The notes under the pieces are model-generated. The model searched no databases. It was given only the letters and a program-made list of their open reading frames with translations, and was not told the origin of the DNA. Of a stretch of DNA of 64,000 nucleotides, positions 29,552-64,000 are shown piece after piece; the stretch's first letter is position 1; every line of letters begins with the position of its first letter. Origin of the DNA: a virus; the IMG/VR virus record IMGVR_UViG_3300045988_135716, positions 32,001 to 96,000 of that record; one strand, 5' to 3'. The translations under genes were made by a program, and so were the position numbers.

Positions 29552-29563
29552 GAGGTGGGGGTT

Positions 29564-34641: not shown

Positions 34642-35592
34642 TTGTACGCATTTTTTGGAAGGGGGTCTGATTATATAAATAATTATGTAGATTGTGGTTC
34701 TTATTATATTGGGACTACTAAAACAGGATTAAAATTTTATTTTGATAAGAAATATTATAATATAGTATCTTTATATCATTGGAAAATGAATAGTGATCAT
34801 ATTCCAGTAACATGCGTTGATAATAAATATGTTTCAATTAAGAAAATATTATTTGGAAATATATCATTAAAACATATTAACGGGAATAAATCGGACATAA
34901 GAGAAGAAAATTTAATACCAACAAGAGGATTAAATCATGATGGTAAAACTTTTTTGAATGGTTATATTTCTATCTACATGCCAGAACATAAACGAGCATT
35001 TGATAATGGGTGTGTATATGAACATGTGTTAGTTGCAGAAAAAATGTTAAATAGAGAATTAAAAGAAACAGAATGCGTACATCATATAAATCATATTAGA
35101 ACAGATAATCGTCCAGAAAATTTGATGGTATTTCGTACAAACAAAGACCATATTTTGTTTCATGCAGGAAATTATGCAATTTTATTGGATGATGGCTCGT
35201 ATGTCGTTGATGATAAAAAGATAGAATATTTATATAAATATAATAATAGAACTGCGGAAGAAATTAAAAATAACGTTGAGGATAAAGGTTCAGTTACAGT
35301 AATTACATATAAAAGACAGATAGGAAAAGATTTATGTCCAGTCTGTTTAAAACATATGAAATCAATAAAAGCAAAAATGTGTAAAGAATGTTGGGACAAA
35401 GAAAAAAGTACAAATATACCTACAAAGGAAGAACTTGAAAAATATATTTATGATTTTTCATTTGAAAAAATCGGAAAAATGTATGGTGTAACAGGTAAGA
35501 ATATAACGAAATGGTGTAAAAAATATAATTTACCATATAGAAAAAAGGATATGGATAAAAATGAAAGGGGCGATGTAAATTGGATTGCTTAA
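34642..35592 (+). CDS. HNH homing endonuclease (two HNH_3-like motifs, C-terminal HTH)
   Basis: KHINGNKSDIREENL and VHHINHIRTDNRPENLMVF...H; TTG start in track, true start uncertain. Confidence 0.7.
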   Translation: MYAFFGRGSDYINNYVDCGSYYIGTTKTGLKFYFDKKYYNIVSLYHWKMNSDHIPVTCVDNKYVSIKKILFGNISLKHINGNKSDIREENLIPTRGLNHDGKTFLNGYISIYMPEHKRAFDNGCVYEHVLVAEKMLNRELKETECVHHINHIRTDNRPENLMVFRTNKDHILFHAGNYAILLDDGSYVVDDKKIEYLYKYNNRTAEEIKNNVEDKGSVTVITYKRQIGKDLCPVCLKHMKSIKAKMCKECWDKEKSTNIPTKEELEKYIYDFSFEKIGKMYGVTGKNITKWCKKYNLPYRKKDMDKNERGDVNWIA

Positions 35593-36311
35593 TTACAAAC
35601 GGCAAGCAATATATCCGTTTAGATTCAAATGGTAGTCCTCAAACATGCGGTCAGGTACTTGCAGAAAGATTTTCAGAAGATAAAGCAAAAAACATTATCA
35701 AGAATCTTCCTAAACCATTGAGAAAATTTCACTTTAATGTTCAGCTAGTCTCTGAAATCGCTGCTCAACCTAAATCAATTGAAGAAGAAAAACTACCAGA
35801 AGATATTAACGGTATCTTAGCGGAACTTGACGATTACTATGAAGATTATCAGCGAAATTCAAAGTATGATAATCCTTATACATATCATGGAGAAACTGCT
35901 TTAGAGAAAGAACTTTCTATGAATGATATAGGAATCGGCAATTTCTTTAAGATGGTAATTGATTGTGTTTCTGATAGAGAGAAATACATTGAGAATATGG
36001 AATATCTTATTAAAGAATATGATCTGAAAATTCTTGACGTAAGACATTTTATCCGAGATGAAGAAACAAAATTGGGAACAGTGCCAATGAGTAGAATCAG
36101 TTACTTATTACAATATTATGAACGTCAACGTGCTATATGCAAGAGAAATAGAAATTGTGCAAAACTTTTCCAATATCATGTAGAGAGATTTAAAAACAGG
36201 AAATACATGAAAGTGATTGATAGGATTACAAATTCTAAATATAAATACAGACGTTTATCTAAAGAATATCTCGAAGATTATGCAAAAGGTATAACGAAAG
36301 AGAGAAAATAA
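35580..36311 (+). CDS. hypothetical protein
   Basis: 243-aa ORF (TTG start). Confidence 0.45.
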   Translation: MDCLITNGKQYIRLDSNGSPQTCGQVLAERFSEDKAKNIIKNLPKPLRKFHFNVQLVSEIAAQPKSIEEEKLPEDINGILAELDDYYEDYQRNSKYDNPYTYHGETALEKELSMNDIGIGNFFKMVIDCVSDREKYIENMEYLIKEYDLKILDVRHFIRDEETKLGTVPMSRISYLLQYYERQRAICKRNRNCAKLFQYHVERFKNRKYMKVIDRITNSKYKYRRLSKEYLEDYAKGITKERK

Positions 36312-36345: not shown

Positions 36346-38610
36346 GTGATACGAATGCACTACAAAGACATTCTGGAATCTTATTACAAAGTTAATGAGA
36401 ACAATCCAGAAAACTCAGCAAAGAAATTACATAATGTTGTAGATAAAATTCTAAAACAGTTTGGTGGTATCACCGATATTGACAGGGATGAATGTTATTC
36501 TATAGCAAATTTAGAGATTACAAAATATATCAAAAGTCAATTAGATAAAGGAATTGAAGATTTTGATGAAGATAAATTCAATGGATTTATATATTTTGCA
36601 ATTTCCAGAAAAGTTAAGATGCATATTACAAGAAAAAACAGACAAAAGCGTTGTAAAATCGTAACAAAGATAGAAGATGGAAAGGAAATTAAGGAATATA
36701 TTTATCCAACATCATTAGATAATCTCATGTCTGACGATGGAAAAACAAAGATGATTGATATAATTCCTTCTGATTTTGATATAGAAAGCAGTATTGATGC
36801 AGGAGAACTATTAAATCTTGGAGAAAATGTAGTCAAATATATTGCTTCTCTTGGGTGTATAGAGCGCAAAATTGCAGATTTAATAATGCAAGGATGTAAT
36901 TCTACGGAGATCAAAAGCATATTAAAGCTTTCGGACAAAGAATATAATACATATCTTTCGGATATGAAAGAATATGAAAAAAGAAAACTTCTAAAGATGG
37001 AAGAATGTGAAAATGCAAATATTGAGGAGGAATTACCAATGGAAACAAAAACAACAACATCAGAAAGAACAAAATCTACCAGTTATTCAATAGAATCTCT
37101 TAGCAAACAGTTGAGACAGCACAGATTAAGAGACAACCATCCATTACAAAGAACTTCTGGACAATGGAGTCTACTTACAAAAAGCGAATTAATTTCTGAT
37201 ATTTTACAAGGTAATTCACTTTTACAGATTGTAATTTCAGAAGAAATTAAAGCCGGAATTATAATGCATTGGTTAATTGATGGAAAGCAGCGTTCTACAA
37301 ATTTAAAAGATTATCTTGAAGATGGATTTGCAATTTCCAAAAATGTACAGAGATATATGATTGAATATCAGAGCGACAAAACAGATGAAGATGGGAATGT
37401 AATTTTAAATGAAGATGGGTTTCCAATGCCAGAAAGTAAAGTATTTGATATTCGTGGAAAAAAATTTTCTCAATTGCCAGAAGAATTACAAGACAAATTT
37501 AAAGATTATCAAGTTCCTGTAATGCTCAATTTGAATTGTACAAAGAAAGATATTGCTTATGATATTGCACGATTCAACAGATGTAGACCAATGAATGTTT
37601 CTCAGTCAGGATGGCTAGGATTAGAAGAATCCTATGCTGAATATGTAGATAAGATTTTAAAGATGGATTTCTTTAAGGTTGATTGTGATAAGTCAAGTTA
37701 TTCAAATACGAATATTAAGAACGGATCACTTAGAAGAATTATTATTGAAGCAATAATGACATCTAAATATCTTAGTCATTTTGATAAAGACTTTGGTAAA
37801 ATGTGTGCTTACTTAACTGAAAATGCAAATGAATCAGTATTTATTGATTTTTATTTGACATTGGAGAAGTTATCTAATGTGTTAAGAGGTAATACATCAG
37901 ATATTTTTAATAACAAAAATTCATTTTTATGGTTTGCTTTATTTGATAAATTTTTAGAATATAACATTGAAGATGATAAATTTAATGGATTTATTCAGGA
38001 ATTTAAAGAGACATTACATAATAAAGAAATTGATGGTATTACATACGATTGCTTAAACGGTCAGAAAGGGACAAAGGATCGTTCTTCCGTAACAAAAAGA
38101 TTCAATCATTTGCTTACTCTGATGAAAGAATACTTACATATCGAAGATTCTGTTGAGGAAATCACAGAAGAACCAGAAACCATTGAAAATGATTTGTTTG
38201 ATACAGAAACAATTGAAGAATCATCTGAGAAACCTGCTATCGCAGAAGTAACAGAGTATTCAGCAATTGGAAATGTGGAAATTGAACACGTTGAAGGAGA
38301 AGTAGTAGATAACGATACATTAGATTTTGTGAAAGAATGTGTTGATAAGAACGTAACAGACATTGATGTTTCTTATTATGAAGACGACTTAAATACCATT
38401 ACAAAAGATGTACAGTCTAAGTTACTTGATGATGTAAACAGAAAATCTTTAATTGCAGTTATCGCATATGCGTATATGCAGGATGAAAATTACGAAGAAT
38501 GGTTTGAGAATTATTTTAAAAGAGTTGATACATATGATATTGATCAAAAAAAGAACTATCTCAATATGAGAAACGATTTGATTACTTTTAATAAAGGAGC
38601 AGTTGCATAA
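36346..38610 (+). CDS. fusion protein: sigma-70/ECF-like N-terminal region + DUF262 (ParB/Srx-fold) core + acidic C-terminal region
   Basis: HTH like sigma region 4 (LGCIERKIADLIMQGCNSTEIKSILKLSDKEY) at aa ~170-205; DUF262 motifs PLQRTSGQWS...LIDGKQRS at aa ~265-320. Confidence 0.55.
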   Translation: MIRMHYKDILESYYKVNENNPENSAKKLHNVVDKILKQFGGITDIDRDECYSIANLEITKYIKSQLDKGIEDFDEDKFNGFIYFAISRKVKMHITRKNRQKRCKIVTKIEDGKEIKEYIYPTSLDNLMSDDGKTKMIDIIPSDFDIESSIDAGELLNLGENVVKYIASLGCIERKIADLIMQGCNSTEIKSILKLSDKEYNTYLSDMKEYEKRKLLKMEECENANIEEELPMETKTTTSERTKSTSYSIESLSKQLRQHRLRDNHPLQRTSGQWSLLTKSELISDILQGNSLLQIVISEEIKAGIIMHWLIDGKQRSTNLKDYLEDGFAISKNVQRYMIEYQSDKTDEDGNVILNEDGFPMPESKVFDIRGKKFSQLPEELQDKFKDYQVPVMLNLNCTKKDIAYDIARFNRCRPMNVSQSGWLGLEESYAEYVDKILKMDFFKVDCDKSSYSNTNIKNGSLRRIIIEAIMTSKYLSHFDKDFGKMCAYLTENANESVFIDFYLTLEKLSNVLRGNTSDIFNNKNSFLWFALFDKFLEYNIEDDKFNGFIQEFKETLHNKEIDGITYDCLNGQKGTKDRSSVTKRFNHLLTLMKEYLHIEDSVEEITEEPETIENDLFDTETIEESSEKPAIAEVTEYSAIGNVEIEHVEGEVVDNDTLDFVKECVDKNVTDIDVSYYEDDLNTITKDVQSKLLDDVNRKSLIAVIAYAYMQDENYEEWFENYFKRVDTYDIDQKKNYLNMRNDLITFNKGAVA

Positions 38611-49000: not shown

Positions 49001-49984
49001 TTGAGTCATTTAGTTGAAAATAATAATTCATCTGAGAATGGATTAAGAGTATTAAGTCTATTCGATGGTATATCTTGTGGCAGAATTGCATTGGATAGAG
49101 CTGGATTTAAGGTTAAAGATTATTACGCTTATGAGATTGAACAGAATGCAATCAAGATAAGCAGATATAATTATCCGTCCATTTATCAATGTGGTGATGT
49201 TTTTGATGAAGATTTTAGTAAATATGATGGTATTGATTTGTTAATTGGTGGCAGTCCCTGTACTGAATTTTCAGTAGCAAAGTGTTCTAAAACTGCAAAA
49301 CATAAAAGAGAAGTCGTGCCTGGTGGAGATGGTTGGAAATTGTTTATGCAATATGTAAGAGCGTTACATGAATCGAAACCAAAATATTTTCTATATGAGA
49401 ACAATTATGGCATTGCAGATTCTATACGTGATGCTATCACAAAAGAACTTGGTGTTGAACATGTGCTTTTAGACAGCCAATTAGTTTCAGCTCAAAGACG
49501 TAAGAGATTATATTGGACGAATATTCCAATAAAAGGAGAACCAGAAGATAGAGGAATTTTAGTAAAGGATGTGATTGTAAATGATTCTGAACTAATTAAG
49601 CAGTTTGATGATCGTATTAGAAACACATTAGTCAAATGTGAGAATTACATAAAATATGATTTAAGTGGCAAAGGACATTTTTCTCAGCAAGATAGGATGT
49701 ATTTTCTTAATAATAAAGCACCAACAGTTCCAAGATGTAGAACTGAAACTAAATTTAATGTTTGGTTAGGTGGAGAAACATATAAGAAAACTTGTCCTGT
49801 TGAGATAGAAAGACTTCAAACATTACCAGATGGATATACGGAGTTTGGGTTGAATGAAGATGGAAGCATTGTGAAAATGCCGAAAACAAGAAGATTTGAA
49901 GCTATTGGTAACGGTTGGACTGTTGACATTATAGCTTGGATATTTAGTTTTATGAAGGAGAAACAAGATGCAAATAACAGCTAA
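49001..49984 (+). CDS. DNA (cytosine-5)-methyltransferase
   Basis: LFDGISCG (I), GGSPCTEFS (IV), ENNYG (VI), QRRKRLYW (VIII), GNGWTV (X); TTG start. Confidence 0.85.
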   Translation: MSHLVENNNSSENGLRVLSLFDGISCGRIALDRAGFKVKDYYAYEIEQNAIKISRYNYPSIYQCGDVFDEDFSKYDGIDLLIGGSPCTEFSVAKCSKTAKHKREVVPGGDGWKLFMQYVRALHESKPKYFLYENNYGIADSIRDAITKELGVEHVLLDSQLVSAQRRKRLYWTNIPIKGEPEDRGILVKDVIVNDSELIKQFDDRIRNTLVKCENYIKYDLSGKGHFSQQDRMYFLNNKAPTVPRCRTETKFNVWLGGETYKKTCPVEIERLQTLPDGYTEFGLNEDGSIVKMPKTRRFEAIGNGWTVDIIAWIFSFMKEKQDANNS

Positions 49985-50834
49985 AAGCTATTTTAGTGGA
50001 GCAGGAGGAATGGATTTAGGAATAGAGGAATCTGGAATTAACATAATTGAATCGTATGAGATAGATAAAAAGTGTTGCGACACTTTGAGAAAGAATTTCA
50101 AACATCATGTAAATGAGTCAGATATTACACAGATTACAGTTCTCGATCAGAATGATGCGGATGTTTATATTGGTACATTTCCATGTACACGATATTCAAC
50201 CATTGCTGATATTTCAGGTATAAGAACAGGTGATGATTTATTTTTACATTTCTTTAGGCATATTGCTTTAGCACAACCAGAAATGTATGTAGTAGAAAAC
50301 GTTCCTGGAATGCTTAAATTCAAAGTAGTTATGGAAGCATTGACAAAATTACCTGATTATTACGTGAGAGTTGAATGTCCTATTAACGCAAATATGTGGT
50401 TGCCACAAGAAAGAAAACGATTGATTCTAATTGGAAGTAAGAAACCATTTACCAATTTTGATTATCCTGATTCTCAACCATTAAAACTGAAAGATATTAT
50501 CGAAAATGATGCTTCGATTGATATTCCACAATATGTATATAATCGCATTAATGGAAAATATAGAGATAAACCAATTGTTTCAGATCCAGATAATGATGAT
50601 CTTGCTCCAACATGTGTAGCGCATTACGCAAAAGATAAAGGAACAAGATTAATCAAAGATGGAAAGAGAATTAGACCATATACAGTAAGGGAATATGCTA
50701 GACTGCAAGGTTTTCCAGATTGGTTTGAGTTCTGTGGAACAGATAATGATGCTTATAGACAGATTGGTAATGCTGTTGCTGTTCCAATGGGACGTTGGAT
50801 TGGCAAACAGATTGTAAAATATTTTAATTCATAA
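49968..50834 (+). CDS. DNA (cytosine-5)-methyltransferase (second, overlapping by 17 nt)
   Basis: FSGAGGMDLG (I), GTFPCTRYS (IV), VVENVPG (VI), QERKRLILIG (VIII), RQIGNAVAVP (X). Confidence 0.85.
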   Translation: MQITAKSYFSGAGGMDLGIEESGINIIESYEIDKKCCDTLRKNFKHHVNESDITQITVLDQNDADVYIGTFPCTRYSTIADISGIRTGDDLFLHFFRHIALAQPEMYVVENVPGMLKFKVVMEALTKLPDYYVRVECPINANMWLPQERKRLILIGSKKPFTNFDYPDSQPLKLKDIIENDASIDIPQYVYNRINGKYRDKPIVSDPDNDDLAPTCVAHYAKDKGTRLIKDGKRIRPYTVREYARLQGFPDWFEFCGTDNDAYRQIGNAVAVPMGRWIGKQIVKYFNS

Positions 50835-54116: not shown

Positions 54117-55480
54117 ATGAACTACGAAGATTTTCTAAAACAAAAGGATTATGTTCTGGAAAGTAGTGGATTTAATATTGATAAAGATAAATTAAATCCC
54201 ATGCTATTTGACTTTCAGAAAGACGTAGTAAGATGGGCATTAGCAAAAGGTAGAGCTTGTATTTTTGCAGAGTGTGGGCTTGGTAAAACGCCAATGCAAT
54301 TATCATGGGCGCATCAAGTACATCTACATACGGGCGGTAAAGTTTTAATTCTTGCACCTCTATCGGTTGCGGATCAGACAAAGAGAGAATCTGAAAAATT
54401 CCATTACAATGCAAAAGTATGTGAGAAACAGGAAGATTGTATTGATGGAATCAACATTACAAACTATGAGAAATTAGACAAATTCGTAGCAAATGAATTT
54501 GTTGGAGTAGTCTTAGACGAGAGTTCAATTCTTAAATCCTACACTGGTAAAGTGAGGACTTCTATTATCGAGAATTTCCAAAATGTTCCCTATAAATTAG
54601 CTTGTACTGCGAACCTGCCCCAAATGATTATATGGAGTTGGGAAATCATTCGGAATTTTGTGGAGTTATGACACGTTCAGAGATGTTATCAATGTTCTTT
54701 GTTCATGATGGTGGTCAAACATCTAAGTGGAGATTAAAAGGTCATGCAAAAGATGTATTTTGGCAATGGATGGCAAGTTGGTCTGTATTTATTGATAATC
54801 CATCAAATTTAGGATATGACGGTACAGATTATGAATTACCTAATTTGAATATTCATGAAATTATAGTTGATGGAGATGAACCAATCACTGAATCACTCAC
54901 ATTAACAGAGCGTAGAAATGCAAGAAAAGATACTCTTGAATTAAGATGTCAAAAAGCAGCAGATTTAGTAAATAATTCAGATGAACAATGGTTAGTCTGG
55001 TGTGATCTTAATGCAGAAGGCGATAGATTGAATGAACTGATTGAAGAAAGTAAAAACGTTCAAGGAAGTGATAAGAATAAATACAAGAGTGAAACAATGC
55101 TATCATTTTCTGATGAAAAATTAAAATGTCTTATCAGCAAGCCACAGCTCGCAGGATATGGCATGAATTGGCAGAATTGCCACAATGTTATTTTTACTGG
55201 ACTTTCTGATAGTTTTGAGCAATATTATCAGGCTGTAAGAAGATGTTGGCGTTTTGGTCAGACAAAAGAAGTCAATGTATACATAATCATTTCAGCAAAA
55301 GAAGGTTGTGTAAAAGAGAATATTGAAAGAAAGCAATTAGATTTCATTACTATGAGAGATGCAATGATTAATCTGACTAAAGAAATTACTAAGAAAGAGC
55401 TTAAATCAACGTGTAGGCTTACTACACCATATGAAGCAAATACAACAATGAAATTACCAAATTGGGAGGAATTCAAATAA
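54117..55480 (+). CDS. SNF2/DEAD-like helicase, split by a 1-nt frame shift at ~54612-54614
   Basis: ECGLGKTPMQ (motif I), VVLDESSILK (II), ...KLACTA | PAPNDYMELGNHSEF... continues in next frame; QAVRRCWRFGQTKEV (VI); two track ORFs 54117-54671 and 54602-55480. Confidence 0.75.
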
Positions 55481-56388
55481 TGATGAACGTAATTGATCAA
55501 GCAGTAGCAAATAGATATGCACTTTATCATGGAGACAGTGTAGAAATTACTAAGGAGATTCCAGATAATAGCATTCACTACACTATCTTTTCACCACCAT
55601 TTTCACAGTTATATGTGTACTCTAATTCAGATAGAGATATGGGTAATTGTAAAGGTGATGAAGAATTCTATAATCATTTCAAATATCTTGCAAAAGAATT
55701 ATATAGAATTACAATGCCTGGACGACTTCTGAGTTTTCATTGTATGGATTTACCTCTTATGAAATCAAGAGATGGTGTAATTGGATTAAAAGATTTTCCT
55801 GCGCTCATGCTTAAAATCTTTCAGGATTGTGGATTTATCTATCATAGTAAAGTAACTATTTGGAAGAATCCTGTTACAGAAATGCAAAGAACAAAAGCAC
55901 TTGGGCTTTTACATAAACAGATTAAGAAAGATAGTAGTATGAGTCGTCAAGGACTTCCAGATTATGTGATCACGGTTAGGAAGCCTGGTGATAATCCAGA
56001 ACGAGTTGAACACACAAATGAATCATTTCCTGTTAATGTATGGCAAAATTACGCTTCACCTGTATGGATGGACATTAGGCAGAGTGATACATTACAGAGA
56101 AAATCAGCAAGATCTGAACAGGATGAGAAACATATTTGTCCATTACAGCTTGAAGTAATTCAGAGATGTATTGAATTATGGACGAATCCAAACGATATTG
56201 TGTTTGATCCGTTTGGTGGAATTGGTTCTACTCCATATGTTGCACTTAAATTAGGAAGAAGAGGAATTGCAAGTGAATTAAAAGATAGTTATTTTGAGCA
56301 GTTGAAGAAAAATGTAGAGTCTGTGGCTGCCGAAGAACCAGAATTATTTCCAGTTGGAGAAAAGAGTATTGAGGATGTAGTCGCATAA
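55480..56388 (+). CDS. beta-class DNA amino-methyltransferase (N6-adenine or N4-cytosine)
   Basis: IFSPPF (motif IV) precedes FDPFGGIGST (motif I); GGGAGG SD; TAATG overlap with helicase stop. Confidence 0.8.
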   Translation: MMNVIDQAVANRYALYHGDSVEITKEIPDNSIHYTIFSPPFSQLYVYSNSDRDMGNCKGDEEFYNHFKYLAKELYRITMPGRLLSFHCMDLPLMKSRDGVIGLKDFPALMLKIFQDCGFIYHSKVTIWKNPVTEMQRTKALGLLHKQIKKDSSMSRQGLPDYVITVRKPGDNPERVEHTNESFPVNVWQNYASPVWMDIRQSDTLQRKSARSEQDEKHICPLQLEVIQRCIELWTNPNDIVFDPFGGIGSTPYVALKLGRRGIASELKDSYFEQLKKNVESVAAEEPELFPVGEKSIEDVVA

Positions 56389-59264: not shown

Positions 59265-59555
59265 ATGTGTAAAACAAGTACAAATATTAAACATAATCCA
59301 AAAACAAAAGTAACCGATATAGAACAGATTCTCGAGATTATAGATGATAGACCTTATTATTCATTAAAATATAAAAAAGTTGGAGAAGACTATTATCATA
59401 TAGGATATAGTTCATATGATTTCCATAATGTTCTTCAATGGGAGCAAGAATGTTTTGAGCTGGCTAATTGTATTGAATGTAAGTATGAACAGAAAAATGT
59501 TGTAGGGAGAAAGTGTCAAGCGTGTATAGGTAAAAATATGTTTGAGAAAATATGA
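59265..59555 (+). CDS. hypothetical Cys-containing protein
   Basis: GGGAGTG SD before ATG 59265. Confidence 0.45.
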   Translation: MCKTSTNIKHNPKTKVTDIEQILEIIDDRPYYSLKYKKVGEDYYHIGYSSYDFHNVLQWEQECFELANCIECKYEQKNVVGRKCQACIGKNMFEKI

Positions 59556-59565
59556 GGAATAGAAA

Positions 59566-59751
59566 ATGATTAGTTTAGCAGGAAGTAGATTTAGAGTAGA
59601 GTATGATTTTGATAACGATGAATATAAAGTATTCACTAGGGATCATAGTGGACAAAAAGAAGTCACGGAATCTTTGAGTGCAGAGGACAAGGAAGAACTA
59701 ATAGATGATTTAATTTATGCTATTACAAAACTGGTCACAAAGGAAGCCTGA
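59566..59751 (+). CDS. hypothetical acidic protein
   Basis: ORF; stop TGA is first 3 nt of TGAAACGGCAGTTTCA element. Confidence 0.45.
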   Translation: MISLAGSRFRVEYDFDNDEYKVFTRDHSGQKEVTESLSAEDKEELIDDLIYAITKLVTKEA

Positions 59752-59820
59752 AACGGCAGTTTCATTTGGAGAAATAAAGCACATAACAATAAATAATATA
59801 TAAAATAGGAGGAATAAAGA

Positions 59821-60429
59821 ATGATGAACAATTTTTTAAACGGGATGTTTGGGAAAATTGGAAGTGGAATGTGTAGGCTTTCAATGAATGGAGGAATTGC
59901 AGTAAAAACATCAAACGGTTACAAAAGCTACAATGTTAAAACAGGTAAACTTACTAATTGTAGCAATTTTGTGTTTGATATTGGAGAAGAATTTTTCTTT
60001 GTAATTCCAACAAATAAAGTAGAAAAAGGTGATATTATTTTAGTTAATAATAAACCAAAATGTGTCATTGAATCTGATAAAACTAAAATTACTGTAATCA
60101 ATTATGAAGATTCAACAGTAGAAACTATTTTACCTGAGAGACATGTATTTATGGGTAATACATATTTTTATGGGAAAATTGTTTCAATGTTTGGATGTGA
60201 TATTTTAAAAGGAAAGAAAGGCACAAACAATATTTTTAAATATATGATGCTTTCACAAATGATGAAAGGTGAAAACAATTCTTCTGGAATGCTAAATGGA
60301 AATAGTGGAGGAATGAGTGCTATGTTACCATTTATGATGATGGGTGGAAATATGGGAGAAATGTTTGATGGAATGTTTGATTTTGATACAGACAATGATA
60401 CAAATGTAGAAGAAGAGGAGGAAGCATAA
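59821..60429 (+). CDS. hypothetical protein with Met/Gly-rich region and acidic tail
   Basis: 202-aa ORF, TAGGAGG SD; no family recognised. Confidence 0.5.
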   Translation: MMNNFLNGMFGKIGSGMCRLSMNGGIAVKTSNGYKSYNVKTGKLTNCSNFVFDIGEEFFFVIPTNKVEKGDIILVNNKPKCVIESDKTKITVINYEDSTVETILPERHVFMGNTYFYGKIVSMFGCDILKGKKGTNNIFKYMMLSQMMKGENNSSGMLNGNSGGMSAMLPFMMMGGNMGEMFDGMFDFDTDNDTNVEEEEEA

Positions 60430-60430
60430 T

Positions 60431-61309
60431 ATGGGATGTGGATCATGGACAAGAGCTAGTTATACAAGTTATTCAAAATCAGTAGGAAGAAGTGTTTCAA
60501 AAGATGGAACAATTAGTGGTTCTTATTCTAATCAGGATATGTTCAAAGCTACAAATATTGATCCTGCACTGAATCCCAAAAATGTAATCAGAGAATGTTG
60601 CGACACAGAAGAACATCCAAATACAGTTCCAGTTATTTTAGCATTAGATGTTACTGGATCTATGGGACAAGCTGCCGTTGAAGTAGCAAAGAAACTCAAT
60701 GTAATTATGACTAAATTATATGAGAAAGTAACAGATGTTGAATTTCTCATTATGGGGATTGGAGATTTAGCATGTGACTTTTATCCTATTCAAGCTTCTC
60801 AGTTTGAATCAGATATTCGTATTGCTGAACAGCTTGATAAAATTTATTTTGAATTTGGTGGTGGTGGAAATAATTACGAGTCTTATACCGCAGCATGGTA
60901 TTTTGGTTCTCGTCATACAAAGCTTGATTGTTTAAATCGTGGAAGAAAAGGAATTATCATCACTATGGGAGATGAACAGCTTAATCCATATCTTCCGTTA
61001 AGAGGTCGTTATAGCGGATTGATTGAAGCAACAGGGGATAATCTTCAAGATGATGTAGAAACAAAAGATTTATATAATGAAGTTTCTAAAAAATTTAATA
61101 TTTATCATTTAGATGTAAATCATGGTCGTAGATGGGACGAAGATGAGATTGAAACATCTTATAGAAAATATCTTGACGATGTTCATTTTAGAAAAGTGAC
61201 TATGGATAGTATTACGAATGAAATTGTAGACATTATCATTAATGAAGCAGAAAATAATGTAGTAAATTCAGTTACAAAATCTTCTGGTTCAGAAGAAATT
61301 ACATGGTAG
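60431..61309 (+). CDS. von Willebrand factor A (vWA)-domain protein
   Basis: VILALDVTGSMG MIDAS-like DxTGS motif followed by alternating beta/alpha pattern. Confidence 0.6.
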   Translation: MGCGSWTRASYTSYSKSVGRSVSKDGTISGSYSNQDMFKATNIDPALNPKNVIRECCDTEEHPNTVPVILALDVTGSMGQAAVEVAKKLNVIMTKLYEKVTDVEFLIMGIGDLACDFYPIQASQFESDIRIAEQLDKIYFEFGGGGNNYESYTAAWYFGSRHTKLDCLNRGRKGIIITMGDEQLNPYLPLRGRYSGLIEATGDNLQDDVETKDLYNEVSKKFNIYHLDVNHGRRWDEDEIETSYRKYLDDVHFRKVTMDSITNEIVDIIINEAENNVVNSVTKSSGSEEITW

Positions 61310-61326
61310 AATAGGAGAATTAAAAG

Positions 61327-62427
61327 ATGAAAGACATTAAGATTGTAATTGGAGCAAATTTTGGGGATGAAGGAAAGGGCTTGATGACAGATTATTTTTC
61401 GCAAAAATCCAATAGCATTGTTGTGTGTTCAAATGGTGGAGCGCAAAGAGGACATACTGTAACAACGCCAACTGCAATTAGACATGTCTTTCATCATTTT
61501 GGATCAGGTACATTTAATAACGCAAGTACATATTTATCTGAGGATTTTATTCTTAATCCAATTATTTTTAAACAAGAATATGATGAGTTAGTAAAACTTA
61601 ATCATAATCCAAATGTATATATTAATCAAAATTGCATGATAACAACTCCATTTGATATGATAGCTAATCAAATCGTTGAGGAAAGCCGTGGTAAAAATAA
61701 ACATGGTAGTTGTGGATTAGGGGTTTTTGAGACAATTAAAAGATATAGAGCTGGTGTAACTGATTTAGATTACAATATTAAAGAATACTATTTGGAACAA
61801 CTTAAAAAGGAGGACATTGAATTATCAGGCGAATGGTTGAAAATCTTTTTTGATAATGGTATATTTGAACATTTCTTAGAAGACTTGGATTTTATGAATA
61901 GCCATTCATTGTGTATTTCAGATGAATATTTCTTAAATCAGTATGACAATATTATTTTTGAAGCAGCACAAGGGCTTTTACTTGATCAAAATAATATTGA
62001 TTATTTTCCACATCTTACCCCATCTAACACTGGAATTAAAAATCCCAAGAAAATAATTGAAAATATTGAATGGAATGATGATATAAATATTGAAACTTGT
62101 TATGCATCTCGTACTTATTTAACAAGACATGGCGCAGGGAAATTTCCATCAGAATGCAATAAAAATTTTATTAACGAATATATGTATGATAAAACAAATG
62201 TTCCAAATCCTTTTCAAGATAGATTAAGATATGGATATCTTAATCTAAGAGAACTATATAATAGATGTTCTGATGATATTGGAGATTTTGGAAACACAAA
62301 ATCAATTGCAATTACCCATTGTAACGAATATGACAAATGGGATAATGATTTGCTTATAAATTTATTTAATGATTGGAATATTTATTATTCTGATGGAGAA
62401 ACCCGAAATGATGTAGATTTAAGATAA
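61327..62427 (+). CDS. adenylosuccinate-synthetase-family (PurA/PurZ-like) enzyme, short divergent form
   Basis: IVIGANFGDEGKGLMTD (P-loop GDEGKG with catalytic Asp) and NGGAQRGHTV (GHT His); 366 aa, shorter than bacterial PurA. Confidence 0.6.
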   Translation: MKDIKIVIGANFGDEGKGLMTDYFSQKSNSIVVCSNGGAQRGHTVTTPTAIRHVFHHFGSGTFNNASTYLSEDFILNPIIFKQEYDELVKLNHNPNVYINQNCMITTPFDMIANQIVEESRGKNKHGSCGLGVFETIKRYRAGVTDLDYNIKEYYLEQLKKEDIELSGEWLKIFFDNGIFEHFLEDLDFMNSHSLCISDEYFLNQYDNIIFEAAQGLLLDQNNIDYFPHLTPSNTGIKNPKKIIENIEWNDDINIETCYASRTYLTRHGAGKFPSECNKNFINEYMYDKTNVPNPFQDRLRYGYLNLRELYNRCSDDIGDFGNTKSIAITHCNEYDKWDNDLLINLFNDWNIYYSDGETRNDVDLR

Positions 62428-62456
62428 ATAAAATGTTGTTTTCAAAGGAGGATAAG

Positions 62457-63041
62457 ATGAAAAGACAGATAAGAAAATTAGTTTTTGAGACAAATTCATC
62501 AAGCACACACGCTATTTGCATTACAAAAAAGAAAGATAATTATAAACTTCCAAATCATATTGATTTTGAATTTGGTGAGTTTGGGTGGGAATATGGTGAA
62601 TATAGTGATACACGTAATAAAGCATCATATTTAATTACTGCAATTTTTAGTTTTAGCAAAAGTGAAGCAGATGAAAACCTTACACGATTAAAAAATATTT
62701 TGGATTCTCATAATATTACATATTCAATTCCAGAACCAAAAGTTGAATTAGATAGGTGGAGAGGAAAAGAATATTATTATTATGATATTGGTGATAATTA
62801 CATTGACCACGTAAGAGAAACGCAAGACTTTGTAGATGCGGTTTTATCAGATTCAGAAAAGTTATTTAGATATTTATTCGGAGATTCTTTTATTATTACT
62901 GGTAATGACAATGACGATAGCTACAGGGATAGAATGTGTATCTATGAAGGTGAAGAAGAAACAGATTATGGATGCTATCCGATTTACGGAGATTTAAAAC
63001 CTGAATTTAATGATTATGAAATTTATGAGAAAGGAAATTAA
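62457..63041 (+). CDS. hypothetical protein, paralog A with N-terminal KRQIRxxVFETNSSSxH motif
   Basis: MKRQIRKLVFETNSSSTHAICI; AAGGAGG SD before ATG 62457. Confidence 0.5.
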   Translation: MKRQIRKLVFETNSSSTHAICITKKKDNYKLPNHIDFEFGEFGWEYGEYSDTRNKASYLITAIFSFSKSEADENLTRLKNILDSHNITYSIPEPKVELDRWRGKEYYYYDIGDNYIDHVRETQDFVDAVLSDSEKLFRYLFGDSFIITGNDNDDSYRDRMCIYEGEEETDYGCYPIYGDLKPEFNDYEIYEKGN

Positions 63042-63044
63042 ATT

Positions 63045-63341
63045 ATGAAGAGACAAATTAGACGAGGTGTATTTGAAACTAATTCATCAAGCGTACATAG
63101 CTTAACAATGTGTACACAATCAGATTATGATAGATGGAAAAATGGAGAACTTATTTATGATTATTGGGATGGTAAGTTAATTTCAACTGACGAATTAGAT
63201 GATGATTATGAAGAAGGAAGATATTATACATATGAGAATTTTAATGATTATGAACAATTTGATTTTGAAACATATGAATATGACTTTACGACAGAAAATG
63301 GTGATACGGTAGTTGCATTTGGATATTACGGTCACGATTGA
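63045..63341 (+). CDS. hypothetical protein, paralog B with the same N-terminal motif
   Basis: MKRQIRRGVFETNSSSVHSLTM; acidic Tyr/Asp-rich remainder. Confidence 0.5.
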   Translation: MKRQIRRGVFETNSSSVHSLTMCTQSDYDRWKNGELIYDYWDGKLISTDELDDDYEEGRYYTYENFNDYEQFDFETYEYDFTTENGDTVVAFGYYGHD

Positions 63342-63356
63342 TTAGGAGGATTAAGA

Positions 63357-64000
63357 ATGGGATTATTAGGAAGATATAAAAACGGTAACTTTGTGACAAC
63401 TATTTTAAGTGACGGAACAAAAATTAGAGAAACAGAAGATGATGAATTTATTCCTTCATTTGCTGAAAATATGGATATAAAAATTTGCAACTATTGTGAT
63501 ATGGGATGTAAATTTTGTCATGAGGGTAGCACAATAAATGGCAAGTTTGGTAATATTTTAAATGAAAAATTTGTTGATACTTTACATCCATATCAAGAAG
63601 TTGCGATTGGCGGTGGTGATGCAACCAGTCATCCTGATTTAATTCCATTCTTACAAAAACTAAAAGAACGAAAAGTTATTGCAAATATGACTGTTAATCA
63701 GATCCATTTTGAAAAGAAGCATGAATTAATAAAGAGATTAGTCAATGAGAAATTAATCTATGGTCTTGGCGTTTCGTTAGTAAATCCCACAAAACATTTT
63801 ATTGAACTTATAAAACAATATCCAAATGCAGTTATTCATGTAATTAATGGTGTATTAAAACCATCTGATATAAAAGCATTAGAGAATAATAATTTAAAGA
63901 TGTTAATTCTTGGGTATAAACATTTGCGTAGAGGTAATGAGTATTTTGAAGAAGAACAGAATGATATTGAGACTAAGCAGCAATGGTTATATGAAAATCT
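63357..64000 (+). CDS. radical SAM enzyme (N-terminal 214 codons; runs off window end)
   Basis: Not in track (no stop in window). TAGGAGG SD, ATG 63357; CDMGCKFC = CxxxCxxC cluster motif; GGGDATSHPDL glycine-rich SAM motif. Confidence 0.7.
   Translation, partial: MGLLGRYKNGNFVTTILSDGTKIRETEDDEFIPSFAENMDIKICNYCDMGCKFCHEGSTINGKFGNILNEKFVDTLHPYQEVAIGGGDATSHPDLIPFLQKLKERKVIANMTVNQIHFEKKHELIKRLVNEKLIYGLGVSLVNPTKHFIELIKQYPNAVIHVINGVLKPSDIKALENNNLKMLILGYKHLRRGNEYFEEEQNDIETKQQWLYEN

What the first reader, a model, noticed from the sequence alone, without database searches (positions are those of the whole stretch)
59821..64000. Cluster of vWA protein, short PurA/PurZ-like enzyme, two 'FETNSSS' paralogs and a radical-SAM enzyme: possible nucleotide or DNA-modification module
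**Seen**
- The genes are tightly coupled: 59821-60429 (unknown, acidic tail), 60431-61309 (vWA, DVTGSMG), 61327-62427 (366 aa), 62457-63041, 63045-63341 and 63357->64000.
- The 366-aa protein carries GDEGKG and GGAQRGHTV, the adenylosuccinate-synthetase P-loop and catalytic His motifs. It is much shorter than bacterial PurA and diverges elsewhere (GSCGLG where PurA has GRGIGP).
- 62457-63041 and 63045-63341 are paralogs sharing MKRQIR+xVFETNSSSxH, a motif I cannot place in any family.
- 63357->64000 is a CxxxCxxC radical-SAM enzyme missing from the ORF track because it runs off the window.

**Established**
- Short PurA homologs in phages include PurZ, which makes 2-aminoadenine (Z) nucleotides from dGMP.
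- Phage radical-SAM enzymes occur in base-modification and nucleotide pathways.

**Inference**
- This may be a nucleotide-pool or DNA-hypermodification module, possibly of a new type.
- I do not see the DatZ, MazZ or DpoZ partners in the window, so a PurZ call is not justified.
Basis: partly seen in the sequence, partly recalled or inferred. Interest (0 to 1): 0.65.

Follow-up and report, generated by a model that had tools for sequence, protein, structure and literature searches.

The report
Two unrelated phage cassettes, one PurA-like
The six genes are two independent swappable phage cassettes: a divergent adenylosuccinate-synthetase-like enzyme always paired with a vWA protein (neither PurA nor PurZ), and a radical-SAM enzyme always paired with 'FETNSSS'-tagged proteins; both pairings are widespread and I found no description of either.

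Summary
In detail: all six ORFs, motifs and tight spacing are real.

The one-module interpretation is not supported. Close relatives of this gut phage carry either block without the other, and the DNA break lies at 62419-62444.

**Module A (59751-62444)** is a Met/Gly-rich protein, a vWA protein and a PurA-like enzyme.
- The vWA-to-PurA-like pair is obligate. It is found in 77 of 80 bacterial/MAG loci (the other 3 are cut by contig ends) and in Mycobacterium cluster C, Rhizobium and Vibrio phages.
- The enzyme forms a third clade, separate from PurA and PurZ in 100/100 bootstraps.
- It keeps the phosphotransfer residues (P-loop, Asp13, His41, Gln224).
- It has replaced the L-aspartate site in 81/81 members: T301 to Q, R303 deleted.
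- It is not PurZ, because Asp13 is kept and no DatZ/MazZ was seen. It is not an ordinary PurA either.
- My best guess is an NTP-dependent purine-nucleotide ligase that uses a different amine and works with its vWA partner as an accessory host-interaction function.

**Module B (62419 to beyond 64000)** is 1-4 proteins sharing an invariant N-terminal 'VFETNSSSxH' tag plus a small radical-SAM enzyme.
- The two are adjacent in 84 of 86 loci, including Lak megaphages and Microcystis phage Ma-LMM01.
- It is not NrdG-like.

Function is inferred in both cases, not shown.

The parts
59751..62444 (+). Module A cassette as a DNA block (Met/Gly-rich protein + vWA + PurA-like)
   Evidence: blastn: 98.8% identical over 2694 nt to MT835469 (L001 18425-21118), which lacks what follows. 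Absent from L006 and L007, which share the flanks.
59821..60429 (+). Met/Gly-rich 202-aa protein with an acidic C-terminal tail; alternative third partner of the vWA/PurA-like pair
   Evidence: Homologues sit upstream of the vWA gene in Vibrio phage Va1 (directly; L002 6252-6965, unannotated) and in Rhizobium phage RHph_TM30 (gp016, with gp017 in between). An HMM finds it in 23 of 80 genome-collection loci and never together with the J-domain pseudokinase. No Pfam, PHROG or PDB match.
60431..61309 (+). vWA-domain protein with intact MIDAS and a conserved N-terminus MG.G.W....Y.S; obligate partner of the PurA-like enzyme
   Evidence: AF2 model plus Foldseek give 205 PDB hits at E<=1e-3; every match in the top 50 listed is a vWA or I domain. 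MIDAS residues are invariant. The N-terminal MG motif is present in nearly all of about 85 homologues. Belongs to phrog_2971.
61327..62427 (+). PurA-family enzyme of a third clade that is always linked to the vWA gene (366 aa)
   Evidence: Pfam PF00709 2.4e-34. NCBIfam scores are far below the cut-offs for PurA (96 against 402) and PurZ (38.7 against 300). Clade-specific active-site pattern. Separate clade in 100/100 NJ bootstraps. Immediately downstream of the vWA gene in 77 of 80 loci.
62419..64000 (+). Module B cassette as a DNA block (FETNSSS proteins + radical SAM); continues beyond the window
   Evidence: blastn: 98.4-98.6% identical to L006 and L007, which lack module A.
62457..63041 (+). 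FETNSSS protein, long form (194 aa)
   Evidence: phrog_28997 8e-23. AF2 pLDDT 78.9, but residues 1-19, which hold the invariant tag, are below 50. No fold match in PDB. Homologues in Ma-LMM01 and Lak phages.
63045..63341 (+). FETNSSS protein, short form (98 aa)
   Evidence: Shares the invariant N-terminal Q4 R6 V9 F10 E11 T12 N13 S14 S15 S16 H18 with six divergent paralogues. An exact copy is found on 23 long contigs.
63357..64000 (+). Radical-SAM enzyme, first 214 of about 296 residues (phrog_16999)
   Evidence: CxxxCxxC motif. PF04055 30.8 bits. Full length is 295-298 aa. Only the three cluster cysteines are conserved. Adjacent to FETNSSS genes in 84 of 86 loci.

Best explanation
**Shown**
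- The region holds two independent accessory cassettes that sit side by side in a variable hotspot of a large gut phage, about 150-215 kb on the relatives' contigs.
- Module A (59751-62444) encodes a Met/Gly-rich protein, a vWA/MIDAS protein and a PurA-family enzyme.
- The vWA-to-PurA-like gene pair is an obligate unit in hundreds of bacterial and phage genomes.
- A third, non-catalytic partner sits upstream of it. This is either the Met-rich protein or a J-domain pseudokinase, never both.
- In bacteria an NrtR-type (Nudix-wHTH) regulator is usually nearby.
- The enzyme keeps the PurA phosphotransfer and purine-binding core: P-loop, Asp13, His41, Gln224, Thr239.
- It has a different, clade-invariant set of residues where PurA and PurZ bind L-aspartate and part of the IMP 5'-phosphate.

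**Inferred**
- The enzyme still uses an NTP to phosphorylate a lactam carbonyl of a purine nucleotide, which is the PurA chemistry.
- It then joins that nucleotide to an amine other than free aspartate.
- It does so in a complex with the vWA protein. The vWA protein would act either as a MIDAS-dependent adaptor for an acidic partner, or as the donor of its own invariant, flexible N-terminal glycine.
- The product would be an N6-substituted adenine nucleotide or a nucleotide-tagged protein.
- It would be used in host takeover, counter-defence or nucleotide signalling, not in replacing a base in phage DNA.

**Module B (62419 to beyond 64000)**
- Shown: a compact radical-SAM enzyme is always encoded next to 1-4 proteins that share an invariant N-terminal tag (VFETNSSSxH) on otherwise divergent bodies.
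- Inferred: the radical-SAM enzyme recognises and chemically modifies that tag, in a maturase-and-substrates arrangement.
For: **Independence of the two cassettes**
- MT835469 (L001) has module A at 98.8% identity but different genes after it. L006 and L007 have module B at 98.4-98.6% but a viperin-like radical SAM or a TnpB in place of module A.
- Only 9-10 of 80 viral FETNSSS loci carry vWA or PurA-like genes. Only 1 of 80 vWA loci carries FETNSSS/rSAM genes.

**Obligate vWA/PurA-like pair**
- tblastn hit sets for the two proteins in phage genomes coincide: Mycobacterium 201, Rhizobium 10, Vibrio 6.
- In 77 of 80 genome-collection loci the PurA-like ORF follows the vWA ORF on the same strand. 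The other 3 are cut by contig ends.
- The family has 2329 clusters at 50% identity with E<=1e-30.

**Enzyme is neither PurA nor PurZ**
- Three clades separate in 100/100 bootstraps.
- Mean identity is 23.5% to PurA and 18.8% to PurZ.
- Scores are below all NCBIfam cut-offs.
- Asp13 is kept, whereas all 147 phage PurZ/PurZ0 have Ser (PMC12884076).
- Across 81 clade members: D13, K16, H41, Q224 and T239 are kept. N38 becomes Q (79), T129 becomes C (76), V273 becomes H (81), T301 becomes Q (81), R303 is deleted (81), and R143 is not conserved.
- PurZ and canonical PurA both keep the TT...R aspartate motif.

**Partners**
- vWA fold and MIDAS confirmed.
- The N-terminal MG motif is conserved and residues 1-7 have low pLDDT.
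- The J-domain HPD motif is invariant, but the kinase-like domain lacks the HRD and DFG aspartates.
- Met-rich protein and J-pseudokinase are mutually exclusive. An NrtR-like gene is present in 49 of 80 loci.

**Module B**
- Adjacent in 84 of 86 loci, with 1-4 tandem paralogues.
- Same arrangement in Ma-LMM01 and Lak-B5.
- The tag is invariant while the protein bodies diverge.
- The tag region is disordered in the model.
Against: - No biochemical datum exists for any of these proteins. The substrate, the nucleophile and the physical complex are all inferences from residue conservation and gene order.
- Retention of Asp13, His41 and Gln224 is equally what one expects of a real adenylosuccinate synthetase with an unusual aspartate loop.
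- The vWA N-terminal glycine idea rests only on conservation and predicted disorder.
- No vWA-PurA fusion protein was seen among the top 150 representatives, so there is no Rosetta-stone support for a complex.
- Bacterial neighbourhoods other than NrtR and the J-pseudokinase are heterogeneous, so they give no pathway context.
- For module B, the long FETNSSS proteins also share internal motifs (GEFGW, YxDH, TGNDN). This would fit enzymes rather than substrates.
- The radical-SAM enzyme has no auxiliary cluster or recognisable peptide-recognition domain.
- Only 64 kb of the phage was available. DatZ, MazZ or DpoZ elsewhere in the genome were not excluded directly.
Confidence: 0.45

Rival explanations
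1. The 366-aa protein is a genuine adenylosuccinate synthetase (IMP + Asp + GTP gives adenylosuccinate). It would be an auxiliary metabolic gene that boosts AMP supply for the phage, with the vWA protein only regulating or stabilising it.
For: The Pfam Adenylsucc_synt match is clear. The best PDB hits are bacterial PurA at 3e-16. The P-loop, Asp13, His41, Gln224 and Thr239 are all kept in 79-81 of 81 clade members. Records annotate it as PurA-like.
Against: - The residues that hold L-aspartate in PurA are replaced in all 81 members: T300 becomes aromatic, T301 becomes Q, R303 is deleted. PurZ, which also uses aspartate, keeps them.
- It scores 96 bits against the 402-bit PurA equivalog cut-off.
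- The strict linkage to a vWA gene and to chaperone-like adaptors has no counterpart in purine biosynthesis.
- The bacteria that carry it would be expected to have an ordinary purA as well. That is a general expectation and was not checked here.
Confidence: 0.12
2. The enzyme is a PurZ-like synthetase, and the cluster (with or without the radical-SAM genes) changes the chemistry of the phage DNA. This would be 2-aminoadenine or another purine hypermodification.
For: PHROGs places it in phrog_1211, which is labelled '2-aminooxy adenylosuccinate synthetase'. It is short, like PurZ. It has Phe two residues before the catalytic Asp, as PurZ does (NFGD against QFGS; role of F12 from bioRxiv 10.1101/2025.10.22.683976).
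Against: - Asp13 is kept, while 100% of 147 phage PurZ/PurZ0 have Ser.
- NF038379 PurZ scores 38.7 against a 300-bit cut-off.
- There is no hit to PurZ structures at 1e-3, although the PDB holds them.
- It forms a separate clade in 100/100 bootstraps.
- No HD (DatZ) or MazG gene lies within 10 kb on six contigs or among the larger window ORFs.
- The cassette is present or absent among near-identical phages and occurs in bacterial chromosomes.
- The phage carries several DNA methyltransferases, including a Dam-type one in relatives, which implies ordinary adenine.
Confidence: 0.03
3. All six genes form one pathway. The radical-SAM enzyme and FETNSSS proteins would work on the product of the PurA-like enzyme.
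For: The genes share a strand and have short gaps of 1-29 nt. The arrangement is conserved in at least four long contigs (L003, L004, L005, L008) and in about 9 IMG/VR contigs.
Against: - Each half occurs without the other in close relatives, with a clean DNA junction at 62419-62444.
- 70 of 80 FETNSSS loci lack module A, and 79 of 80 vWA loci lack module B.
- Ma-LMM01 and Lak phages have module B only, within the roughly 5-kb flanks inspected. Mycobacterium, Rhizobium and Vibrio phages have module A only: these phage groups are absent from the phage-collection FETNSSS hits (Prevotella, Microcystis and Cyanophage only), and their fetched module-A loci carry no FETNSSS or rSAM gene.
Confidence: 0.04
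4. Module A is not a biosynthetic enzyme system. It would be an NTP-driven chaperone or targeting device. The PurA-like P-loop protein would act as a nucleotide switch, the Met-rich protein or J-domain pseudokinase would bind clients or recruit DnaK, and the vWA would dock them, by analogy with MoxR-vWA pairs and with the methionine-rich client grooves of SRP54 and Get3.
For: - All partners are non-catalytic adaptor types: vWA/MIDAS, J-domain with invariant HPD plus a pseudokinase, and a Met/Gly-rich tail.
- vWA proteins classically pair with NTPases (general knowledge; the jumbo-phage MoxR-vWA example is in PMC7824862).
Against: The clade keeps residues needed for transfer of the phosphoryl group to an acceptor and for holding a purine: Asp13, His41, Gln224, Thr239. 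It also has its own invariant pocket residues (Q38, C129, H273, N298, Q301). A mere switch would not need any of these.
Confidence: 0.12
5. The radical-SAM protein is an NrdG-like activase for an anaerobic ribonucleotide reductase or another glycyl-radical enzyme.
For: The weak best NCBIfam hit is NrdG2 (1.6e-5, 24 bits). The protein is small and has a single cluster, as activases do.
Against: - It scores 24 bits against a 131-bit cut-off.
- No nrdD lies in the window or within 10 kb downstream on six contigs.
- Its constant neighbour is the FETNSSS family (84 of 86 loci).
- The FETNSSS tag holds no invariant glycine.
Confidence: 0.03

Closest known systems
Adenylosuccinate synthetase PurA (EC 6.3.4.4; Pfam PF00709)
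   Same: Same fold family. The P-loop GDEGKG, catalytic Asp13 and His41, Gln224, Thr239 and the TRxGxG loop are kept. The best solved-structure matches are bacterial PurA.
   Different: - 366 aa against about 430 aa.
- The L-aspartate site is replaced (T300 to aromatic, T301 to Q, R303 deleted).
- N38 is Q, T129 is C, V273 is H, and R143 is not conserved.
- The guanine-recognition motif TKLD is THCN here.
- Scores are a quarter of the equivalog cut-off.
- It is always encoded after a vWA gene.
PurZ / PurZ0 (succino-amino-deoxyadenylate synthase of Z-genome phages)
   Same: Phage-encoded short PurA homologue placed in the same PHROG (phrog_1211). It has Phe two residues before the catalytic position.
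   Different: - Asp rather than Ser at the diagnostic position.
- 18.8% mean identity and a separate clade.
- No DatZ, MazZ or DpoZ nearby, whereas true PurZ loci show them next door.
- PurZ keeps the aspartate-binding TT...R motif, and this clade does not.
NTPase-vWA pairs (MoxR-vWA such as CbbQ/CbbO, NorQ/NorD, RavA/ViaA) and the TerY vWA-kinase-phosphatase triad
   Same: A MIDAS-bearing vWA protein is encoded as an obligate partner of a P-loop NTP-using protein. A kinase-like protein is adjacent in many loci.
   Different: The NTP-using partner is a PurA-family enzyme, not an AAA+ ATPase. The kinase-like protein is a J-domain pseudokinase, and there is no PP2C phosphatase. This comparison with MoxR and TerY systems rests on general knowledge, not on a test here.
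Radical-SAM maturases with tandem tagged substrates (RiPP maturases; protein-modifying enzymes such as QhpD/QhpC or anSME)
   Same: A radical-SAM gene is invariably next to 1-4 tandem paralogues. These share a conserved N-terminal segment and have variable remainders.
   Different: - The putative substrates are folded proteins of 97-240 aa, not short peptides.
- The enzyme has no SPASM or auxiliary-cluster cysteines.
- The tag sequence matches no known modification motif that I can name.

Membership tests
PurZ / PurZ0 | Ser replaces the catalytic Asp13 of PurA (100% of 147 phage PurZ/PurZ0, PMC12884076) | tested here: not met
   The window protein has GDEGKG. Asp is present in 79 of 81 clade members and the other two have gaps. 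The PurZ controls have GSTGKG.
PurZ / PurZ0 | Passes the NCBIfam PurZ model NF038379 (cut-off 300 bits) and groups with PurZ in a tree | tested here: not met
   38.7 bits. Separate clade in 100/100 NJ bootstraps. No hit to PDB PurZ chains at 1e-3.
PurZ / PurZ0 | Co-encoded DatZ (HD dATPase), MazZ (MazG-like) or DpoZ | tested here: not met
   None within 10 kb either side on six contigs (precomputed Pfam) or among window ORFs of at least 150 aa. The rest of the phage genome was not examined.
Canonical PurA | P-loop, Asp13, His41 and Gln224 catalytic core | tested here: met
   Conserved in the window protein and in 79-81 of 81 clade members.
Canonical PurA | L-aspartate site Thr300, Thr301 and Arg303 (E. 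coli numbering; roles from published PurA structures, recalled from general knowledge) | tested here: not met
   F/Y/W/H at 300, Q at 301 (81/81) and a deletion at 303 (81/81). The motif is present in E. coli PurA and in PurZ.
Canonical PurA | Reaches an equivalog HMM cut-off (NF002223 402 bits; TIGR00184 395 bits) | tested here: not met
   96 and 83 bits.
Canonical PurA | Catalyses IMP + Asp + GTP to adenylosuccinate | not testable with these tools
   Needs an enzyme assay or purA complementation.
vWA domain with MIDAS | Rossmann-like vWA fold | tested here: met
   Foldseek gives 205 PDB matches at E<=1e-3; the top 50 listed are all integrin I domains, collagen VI vWA, factor B, BatB, Rpn10 and similar. 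The model has pLDDT 69.7.
vWA domain with MIDAS | DxSxS...T...D metal site | tested here: met
   D73, T/S75, S77, T163 and D181 are invariant in four distant homologues.
Radical SAM superfamily | CxxxCxxC cluster motif and a PF04055 match | tested here: met
   CDMGCKFC. 30.8 bits against the 29.5 cut-off. The three Cys are conserved in 74 homologues.
NrdG-type activase | Passes the NrdG/NrdG2 model and has an adjacent nrdD | tested here: not met
   24.3 bits against 131. No nrdD in the window or downstream.
Radical-SAM maturase with tagged substrates | Conserved adjacency to tandem paralogues sharing a recognition segment | tested here: met
   84 of 86 loci, with 1-4 copies. Eleven tag positions are invariant.
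Radical-SAM maturase with tagged substrates | Auxiliary Fe-S (SPASM/twitch) domain or RRE recognition domain | tested here: not met
   No further conserved cysteines. No SPASM hit above cut-off. The RRE domain was not specifically tested.
Radical-SAM maturase with tagged substrates | Covalent change of the substrate | not testable with these tools
   Needs mass spectrometry of co-expressed proteins.

The most novel reading that the evidence does not exclude
The vWA + PurA-like pair may be an undescribed, widespread two-protein ligase. It would come with a Met-rich or J-domain-pseudokinase adaptor, and in bacteria with an NrtR-type nucleotide sensor. It would activate a purine nucleotide as PurA does, then attach it to something other than aspartate. 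The target could be a protein amine, such as the invariant N-terminal glycine of the vWA partner, which would be a new nucleotide-type protein modification. Alternatively the product could be a new N6-substituted adenine nucleotide used as a signal or antimetabolite in phage-host conflict. Separately, the FETNSSS/radical-SAM pair would be a new protein-level radical-SAM maturation system confined to large phages.
Probability: 0.2. Interest if true: 0.85.

Novelty: new variant of a known kind. Interest (0 to 1): 0.6.

Why it matters
- **Annotation.** Public phage annotation now labels this clade '2-aminooxy adenylosuccinate synthetase', which is the PurZ label, in RefSeq records of Mycobacterium, Rhizobium and Vibrio phages. 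These proteins fail the diagnostic PurZ residue, so the label wrongly suggests Z-genomes.
- **A large uncharacterised group.** A recent survey found 481 viral PF00709 homologues, of which only 147 are PurZ/PurZ0 (PMC12884076). On the phage-collection counts here, this vWA-linked clade probably accounts for much of the rest, and it has no assigned function.
- **An experimentally tractable question.** The strict pairing with a vWA protein, the rebuilt aspartate pocket and the chaperone-like adaptors point to new chemistry on a PurA scaffold. The proteins are small and soluble-looking, and cluster C mycobacteriophages are culturable and carry the pair.
- **Module B.** It defines a second phage-specific gene pair, present in Lak megaphages and in the Microcystis bloom phage Ma-LMM01. 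Its fold has no match among solved structures.

Tried and rejected
- **PurZ reading:** rejected on Asp13, HMM score, phylogeny and missing partners.
- **Ordinary PurA auxiliary gene:** disfavoured on the aspartate-site replacement and the strict vWA linkage.
- **Single six-gene pathway:** rejected on cassette swaps and distribution.
- **NrdG-like activase:** rejected.
- **Known defence systems:** PADLOC gave nothing for modules A or B. The only exception was a weak viperin hit for the radical SAM (E=0.0015).
- **Fold of the FETNSSS protein:** Foldseek against PDB gave nothing (best E=0.55). BFVD gave only a family member. A PDB profile search gave nothing.
- **Met-rich protein:** no Pfam, PHROG or PDB signal.
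- **Rosetta-stone fusions of PurA-like with vWA:** none among the 150 best representatives.
- **Two large protein searches** returned almost only close relatives and added little diversity. This limited the depth of the AlphaFold alignments.
- **Promoter and terminator scan of 59400-64000:** no more sites than shuffled sequence (25 against 30.6 expected), so it says nothing about transcription units.
- **First NJ tree:** invalid because saturated distances became NaN. It was redone with a Poisson correction.
- **NAD-salvage link:** NAMPT is adjacent in only 2 related Clostridium loci and an isochorismatase in 5. This is suggestive at best.
- **Literature searches** for the vWA/PurA-like pairing found nothing.

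Full report
**1. The observation**

- 59821-60429: 202 aa, Met/Gly-rich C-terminal half ending in an acidic tail.
- 60431-61309: 292 aa, DVTGSMG.
- 61327-62427: 366 aa, GDEGKG, GGAQRGHTV, GSCGLG.
- 62457-63041: 194 aa.
- 63045-63341: 98 aa.
- 63357 onwards: 214 codons with CDMGCKFC, open at the window end.

The gaps between genes are 1-29 nt. Pfam confirms Adenylsucc_synt for the 366-aa protein (2.4e-34). It gives a marginal Radical_SAM hit for the last ORF and nothing for the other four. PHROGs places them as follows:
- the 292-aa protein in phrog_2971 (unknown function);
- the enzyme in phrog_1211, which is labelled '2-aminooxy adenylosuccinate synthetase';
- both FETNSSS proteins in phrog_28997;
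- the radical SAM in phrog_16999.

The window as a whole is the accessory or early region of a large phage. It holds several DNA methyltransferases, HNH and GIY-YIG homing endonucleases, anti-repressors, a sliding clamp and no tRNA. A 98-99% relative is MT835469, a 176-kb 'Bacteriophage sp.' from human faeces. One near-identical vWA protein is filed under Anaerobutyricum hallii.

**2. Two cassettes, not one module**

Looking up the exact 98-aa protein gave long contigs of related phages. Four of them (L003, L004, L005, L008) have all six genes.
- L006 has a 317-aa viperin/MoaA-like radical SAM in place of the first three genes.
- L007 has a TnpB there.
- MT835469 has the first three genes at 98-99% identity, followed by unrelated small ORFs.

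blastn fixes the blocks.
- Window 59751-62444 matches MT835469 at 98.8% and then stops.
- Window 62419/62424-64000 matches L006 and L007 at 98.4-98.6% and starts there.
- The junction lies in the 29-nt spacer between the PurA-like stop codon and the first FETNSSS start codon.

Outside this phage lineage the two sets hardly meet. Of 80 viral loci found through the FETNSSS tag, 9-10 carry vWA or PurA-like genes. Of 80 genome-collection loci found through the vWA protein, one carries FETNSSS/radical-SAM genes.

**3. Module A: an obligate vWA/PurA-like pair**

In the phage collection the two proteins hit the same sets of records: Mycobacterium 201, Rhizobium 10, Vibrio 6, plus the gut phage.
- In Vibrio phage Va1 and Rhizobium phage RHph_TM30 the vWA homologue lies directly upstream of the 'adenylosuccinate synthase'. 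In Mycobacterium phage Pleione a small 88-aa gene (gp267) lies between them.
- The other phage 'hits' are short bacterial purA contaminants or true PurZ at E>=1e-3.

A scan of one genome per bacterial and archaeal species with a vWA alignment found at least 589 relatives. In the best 80 loci, the PurA-like ORF follows the vWA ORF on the same strand in 77. The other three are cut by contig ends. The loci come from Bacillota, Alpha-, Beta- and Gammaproteobacteria, Acidobacteria, Planctomycetota, Cyanobacteria and Patescibacteria. Some sit in megabase contigs among ordinary metabolic genes. The enzyme family has 2329 clusters (50% identity) at E<=1e-30, all of 360-430 aa among the top 150, with no fusions.

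**4. Module A: the partners**

The vWA call is now tested. The AlphaFold model (pLDDT 69.7, pTM 0.73) matches 205 PDB chains at E<=1e-3, and every match in the top 50 listed is a vWA or I domain. The MIDAS residues are invariant. Nearly every homologue begins MG.(G/A).(W/F)....(W/F/Y)..Y, and residues 1-7 are low-confidence in the model.

A third gene sits upstream of the vWA gene, in one of two forms.
- The first is the Met/Gly-rich protein, also present in Va1 as an unannotated ORF and in RHph_TM30 as gp016, where gp017 lies between it and the vWA gene.
- The second is a roughly 341-aa protein with a J domain and a kinase-like domain. The HPD motif is invariant. The kinase-like domain lacks both the HRD and DFG aspartates, so it is a pseudokinase. 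This is what Pleione annotates as a 'Ser/Thr kinase'.
- In the 80 loci the two forms never co-occur: 23 have the Met-rich protein and 39 the J-pseudokinase.
- A Nudix + NrtR-type winged-helix regulator lies nearby in 49 of 80 loci. By eye on one member its Nudix box looks degenerate.
- NAD-salvage genes (NAMPT, isochorismatase) are adjacent in a few loci. A Ter-type PRTase_3 plus a Nudix protein lies upstream in the Rhizobium phage.

**5. Module A: the enzyme**

I aligned 81 distinct clade members to E. coli PurA.
- **Kept:** G12, D13, E14, G15, K16, G17, G40, H41, T42, E221, Q224, T239, R272.
- **Changed, and invariant within the clade:**
  - N38 to Q (79 of 81)
  - T128 to S (80)
  - T129 to C (76)
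  - V273 to H (81)
  - G298 to N (79)
  - T300 to aromatic
  - T301 to Q (81)
  - R303 deleted (81)
  - R305 to hydrophobic
- **Also changed:** R143, the residue of the second subunit that binds the IMP phosphate in PurA, is not conserved. K331 is H or C. D333 is D (48) or N (33). The window protein has THCN where E. coli has TKLD.

Both canonical PurA and PurZ keep the TT...R aspartate motif. The phosphoryl-transfer machinery and part of the purine site are therefore retained. The aspartate site and the 5'-phosphate surroundings have been rebuilt and then frozen.

Placement:
- Mean identity is 41% within the clade, 23.5% to canonical PurA and 18.8% to PurZ.
- In an NJ tree of 89 sequences the three groups are each monophyletic in 100/100 bootstraps.

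NCBIfam scores are 96 bits against the 402 cut-off for PurA and 38.7 against 300 for PurZ. The published PurZ diagnostic is Ser instead of Asp13 in all 147 phage PurZ/PurZ0 (PMC12884076). [quoted passage not shown] That diagnostic is not met here. True PurZ loci show DatZ and MazZ next door. None is seen here.

**6. Module A: how it most likely works**

*Shown:*
- an obligate gene pair;
- conserved catalytic residues;
- a rebuilt nucleophile pocket;
- adaptor-type partners;
- accessory status in phages.

*Inferred:*
- The enzyme performs PurA-type chemistry: NTP-dependent phosphorylation of a purine C6 carbonyl, then displacement by an amine.
- The amine is something other than free aspartate.
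- The enzyme works in a complex with the vWA protein.

The vWA protein could fill one of three roles.
- It could take the place of the lost second-subunit contribution.
- It could dock an acidic partner on its MIDAS. The Met-rich proteins end in acidic residues.
- It could offer its own invariant N-terminal glycine.

The J-domain version implies recruitment of DnaK. The NrtR-type regulator implies control by a nucleotide ligand. For the phage I favour a host-takeover or counter-defence role over genome modification, because near-identical phages do without the cassette. I put 0.45 on this composite. About 0.9 applies to the architectural claims and much less to the chemistry.

**7. Module B**

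tblastn finds FETNSSS proteins in Lak megaphages and in Microcystis phage Ma-LMM01.
- In Ma-LMM01 the order is gp130 (FETNSSS), gp129, then gp128, a 'Fe-S oxidoreductase' of the same radical-SAM family.
- In Lak-B5 the radical SAM is followed by four FETNSSS paralogues.
- A scan of viral contigs found 347 relatives. In 84 of 86 loci examined, 1-4 tandem FETNSSS genes lie beside this radical-SAM family.

Eleven positions of the N-terminal tag are invariant in seven divergent paralogues: Q4, R6, V9, F10, E11, T12, N13, S14, S15, S16 and H18. The rest of each protein diverges or differs in length. The long forms also share GEFGW, YxDH and TGNDN.

The AlphaFold model of the 194-aa protein is good overall (pLDDT 78.9) but is below 50 for residues 1-19, which hold the tag. 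It has no structural neighbour in PDB. The enzyme conserves only the three cluster cysteines. It is far below the NrdG, MoaA and viperin cut-offs, and no nrdD is nearby.

My reading is that the enzyme recognises and modifies the shared tag, at perhaps 0.4. The alternative is that the FETNSSS proteins are enzyme partners.

**8. Comparison and novelty**

The closest known relatives are:
- for the enzyme, PurA (same core, different pocket, new partner) and PurZ (same PHROG, fails every defining test);
- for the architecture, NTPase-vWA pairs;
- for module B, radical-SAM maturase/substrate sets.

Eight full-text searches found no paper that links a PurA-like enzyme to a vWA partner. The 2026 PurZ survey leaves the non-PurZ viral homologues uncharacterised. 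I rate the finding a new variant of a known kind, with a 0.2 chance that it is a genuinely new nucleotide-ligase system.

**9. Verdict**

The region is not a DNA-modification module and not a PurZ system. It is two neighbouring accessory cassettes, each a robustly conserved gene pairing with no description that I could find. The interest score is 0.6.

Noticed in passing
L006 8434-9387 (relative of the window phage; same position as window 59751-62444): A 317-aa viperin/MoaA-like radical-SAM gene occupies the hotspot where the window has module A. It hits PADLOC pVip at 2.2e-15 and viperin_w_prok at 1.5e-11, both below cut-offs. This may be a phage-borne viperin-like enzyme.
   Followed up: partly
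L007 7553-8803: A TnpB/Cas12f-like gene (OrfB_IS605, 416 aa) sits in the same hotspot in another relative. An HNH/AP2 gene follows the radical SAM there. The site appears to be an insertion hotspot.
   Followed up: no
Public phage records (e.g. NC_023737 Pleione gp268, NC_070966 RHph_TM30 gp019, OR413349 Vibrio phage pv27): Members of the vWA-linked clade are annotated '2-aminooxy adenylosuccinate synthetase', which is the PHROG PurZ label. They keep Asp13 and lack Z-cluster partners, so this is probably a systematic mis-annotation.
   Followed up: yes
L002 9125-9769 and 11384-12892 (Vibrio phage Va1): An Rv2179c-like 3'-5' exoribonuclease directly follows the PurA-like gene. A TROVE-domain (Ro60-like) protein lies 2 kb downstream. 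Pleione has a polynucleotide kinase about 3 kb upstream of its PurA-like gene. This may be an RNA-related neighbourhood, or a coincidence.
   Followed up: partly
L010 579-1433 and 1682-2245 (Rhizobium phage RHph_TM30): A Ter-system-type PRTase_3 (ComF-like, 9e-46) and a Nudix protein lie 3-5 kb upstream of the Met-rich/vWA/PurA-like triad.
   Followed up: no
L071 7968-9960; L055 8954-10152: One alphaproteobacterial locus has two tandem vWA paralogues before the PurA-like gene. In one Bacillota MAG the PurA-like gene is split into two ORFs, which points to a frameshift or pseudogene.
   Followed up: no
window 28314-29363: A 349-aa ORF has a GmrSD_N (DUF262) domain (1.3e-15) of the kind found in type IV restriction enzymes. 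It belongs to phrog_2598. This is a phage-encoded nuclease-like gene.
   Followed up: no
window 36346-38610: The largest ORF in the window (754 aa) has no Pfam or PHROG match. The same is true of the ORFs at 27385-28290, 35580-36311 and 19258-20100.
   Followed up: no
window 49001-50834 and 54602-56388: Two adjacent DNA methyltransferase ORFs (phrog_116) are followed by helicase-like and methyltransferase-like ORFs. Relatives show an N6_N4 methyltransferase, an SNF2 helicase and a Dam-type methyltransferase in this region. The phage is heavily equipped for adenine methylation, which argues for ordinary adenine in its DNA.
   Followed up: partly
window 29555-30388: An integrase-like ORF (phrog_216, 1.1e-30) lies in what otherwise looks like a large lytic-type phage genome.
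   Followed up: no
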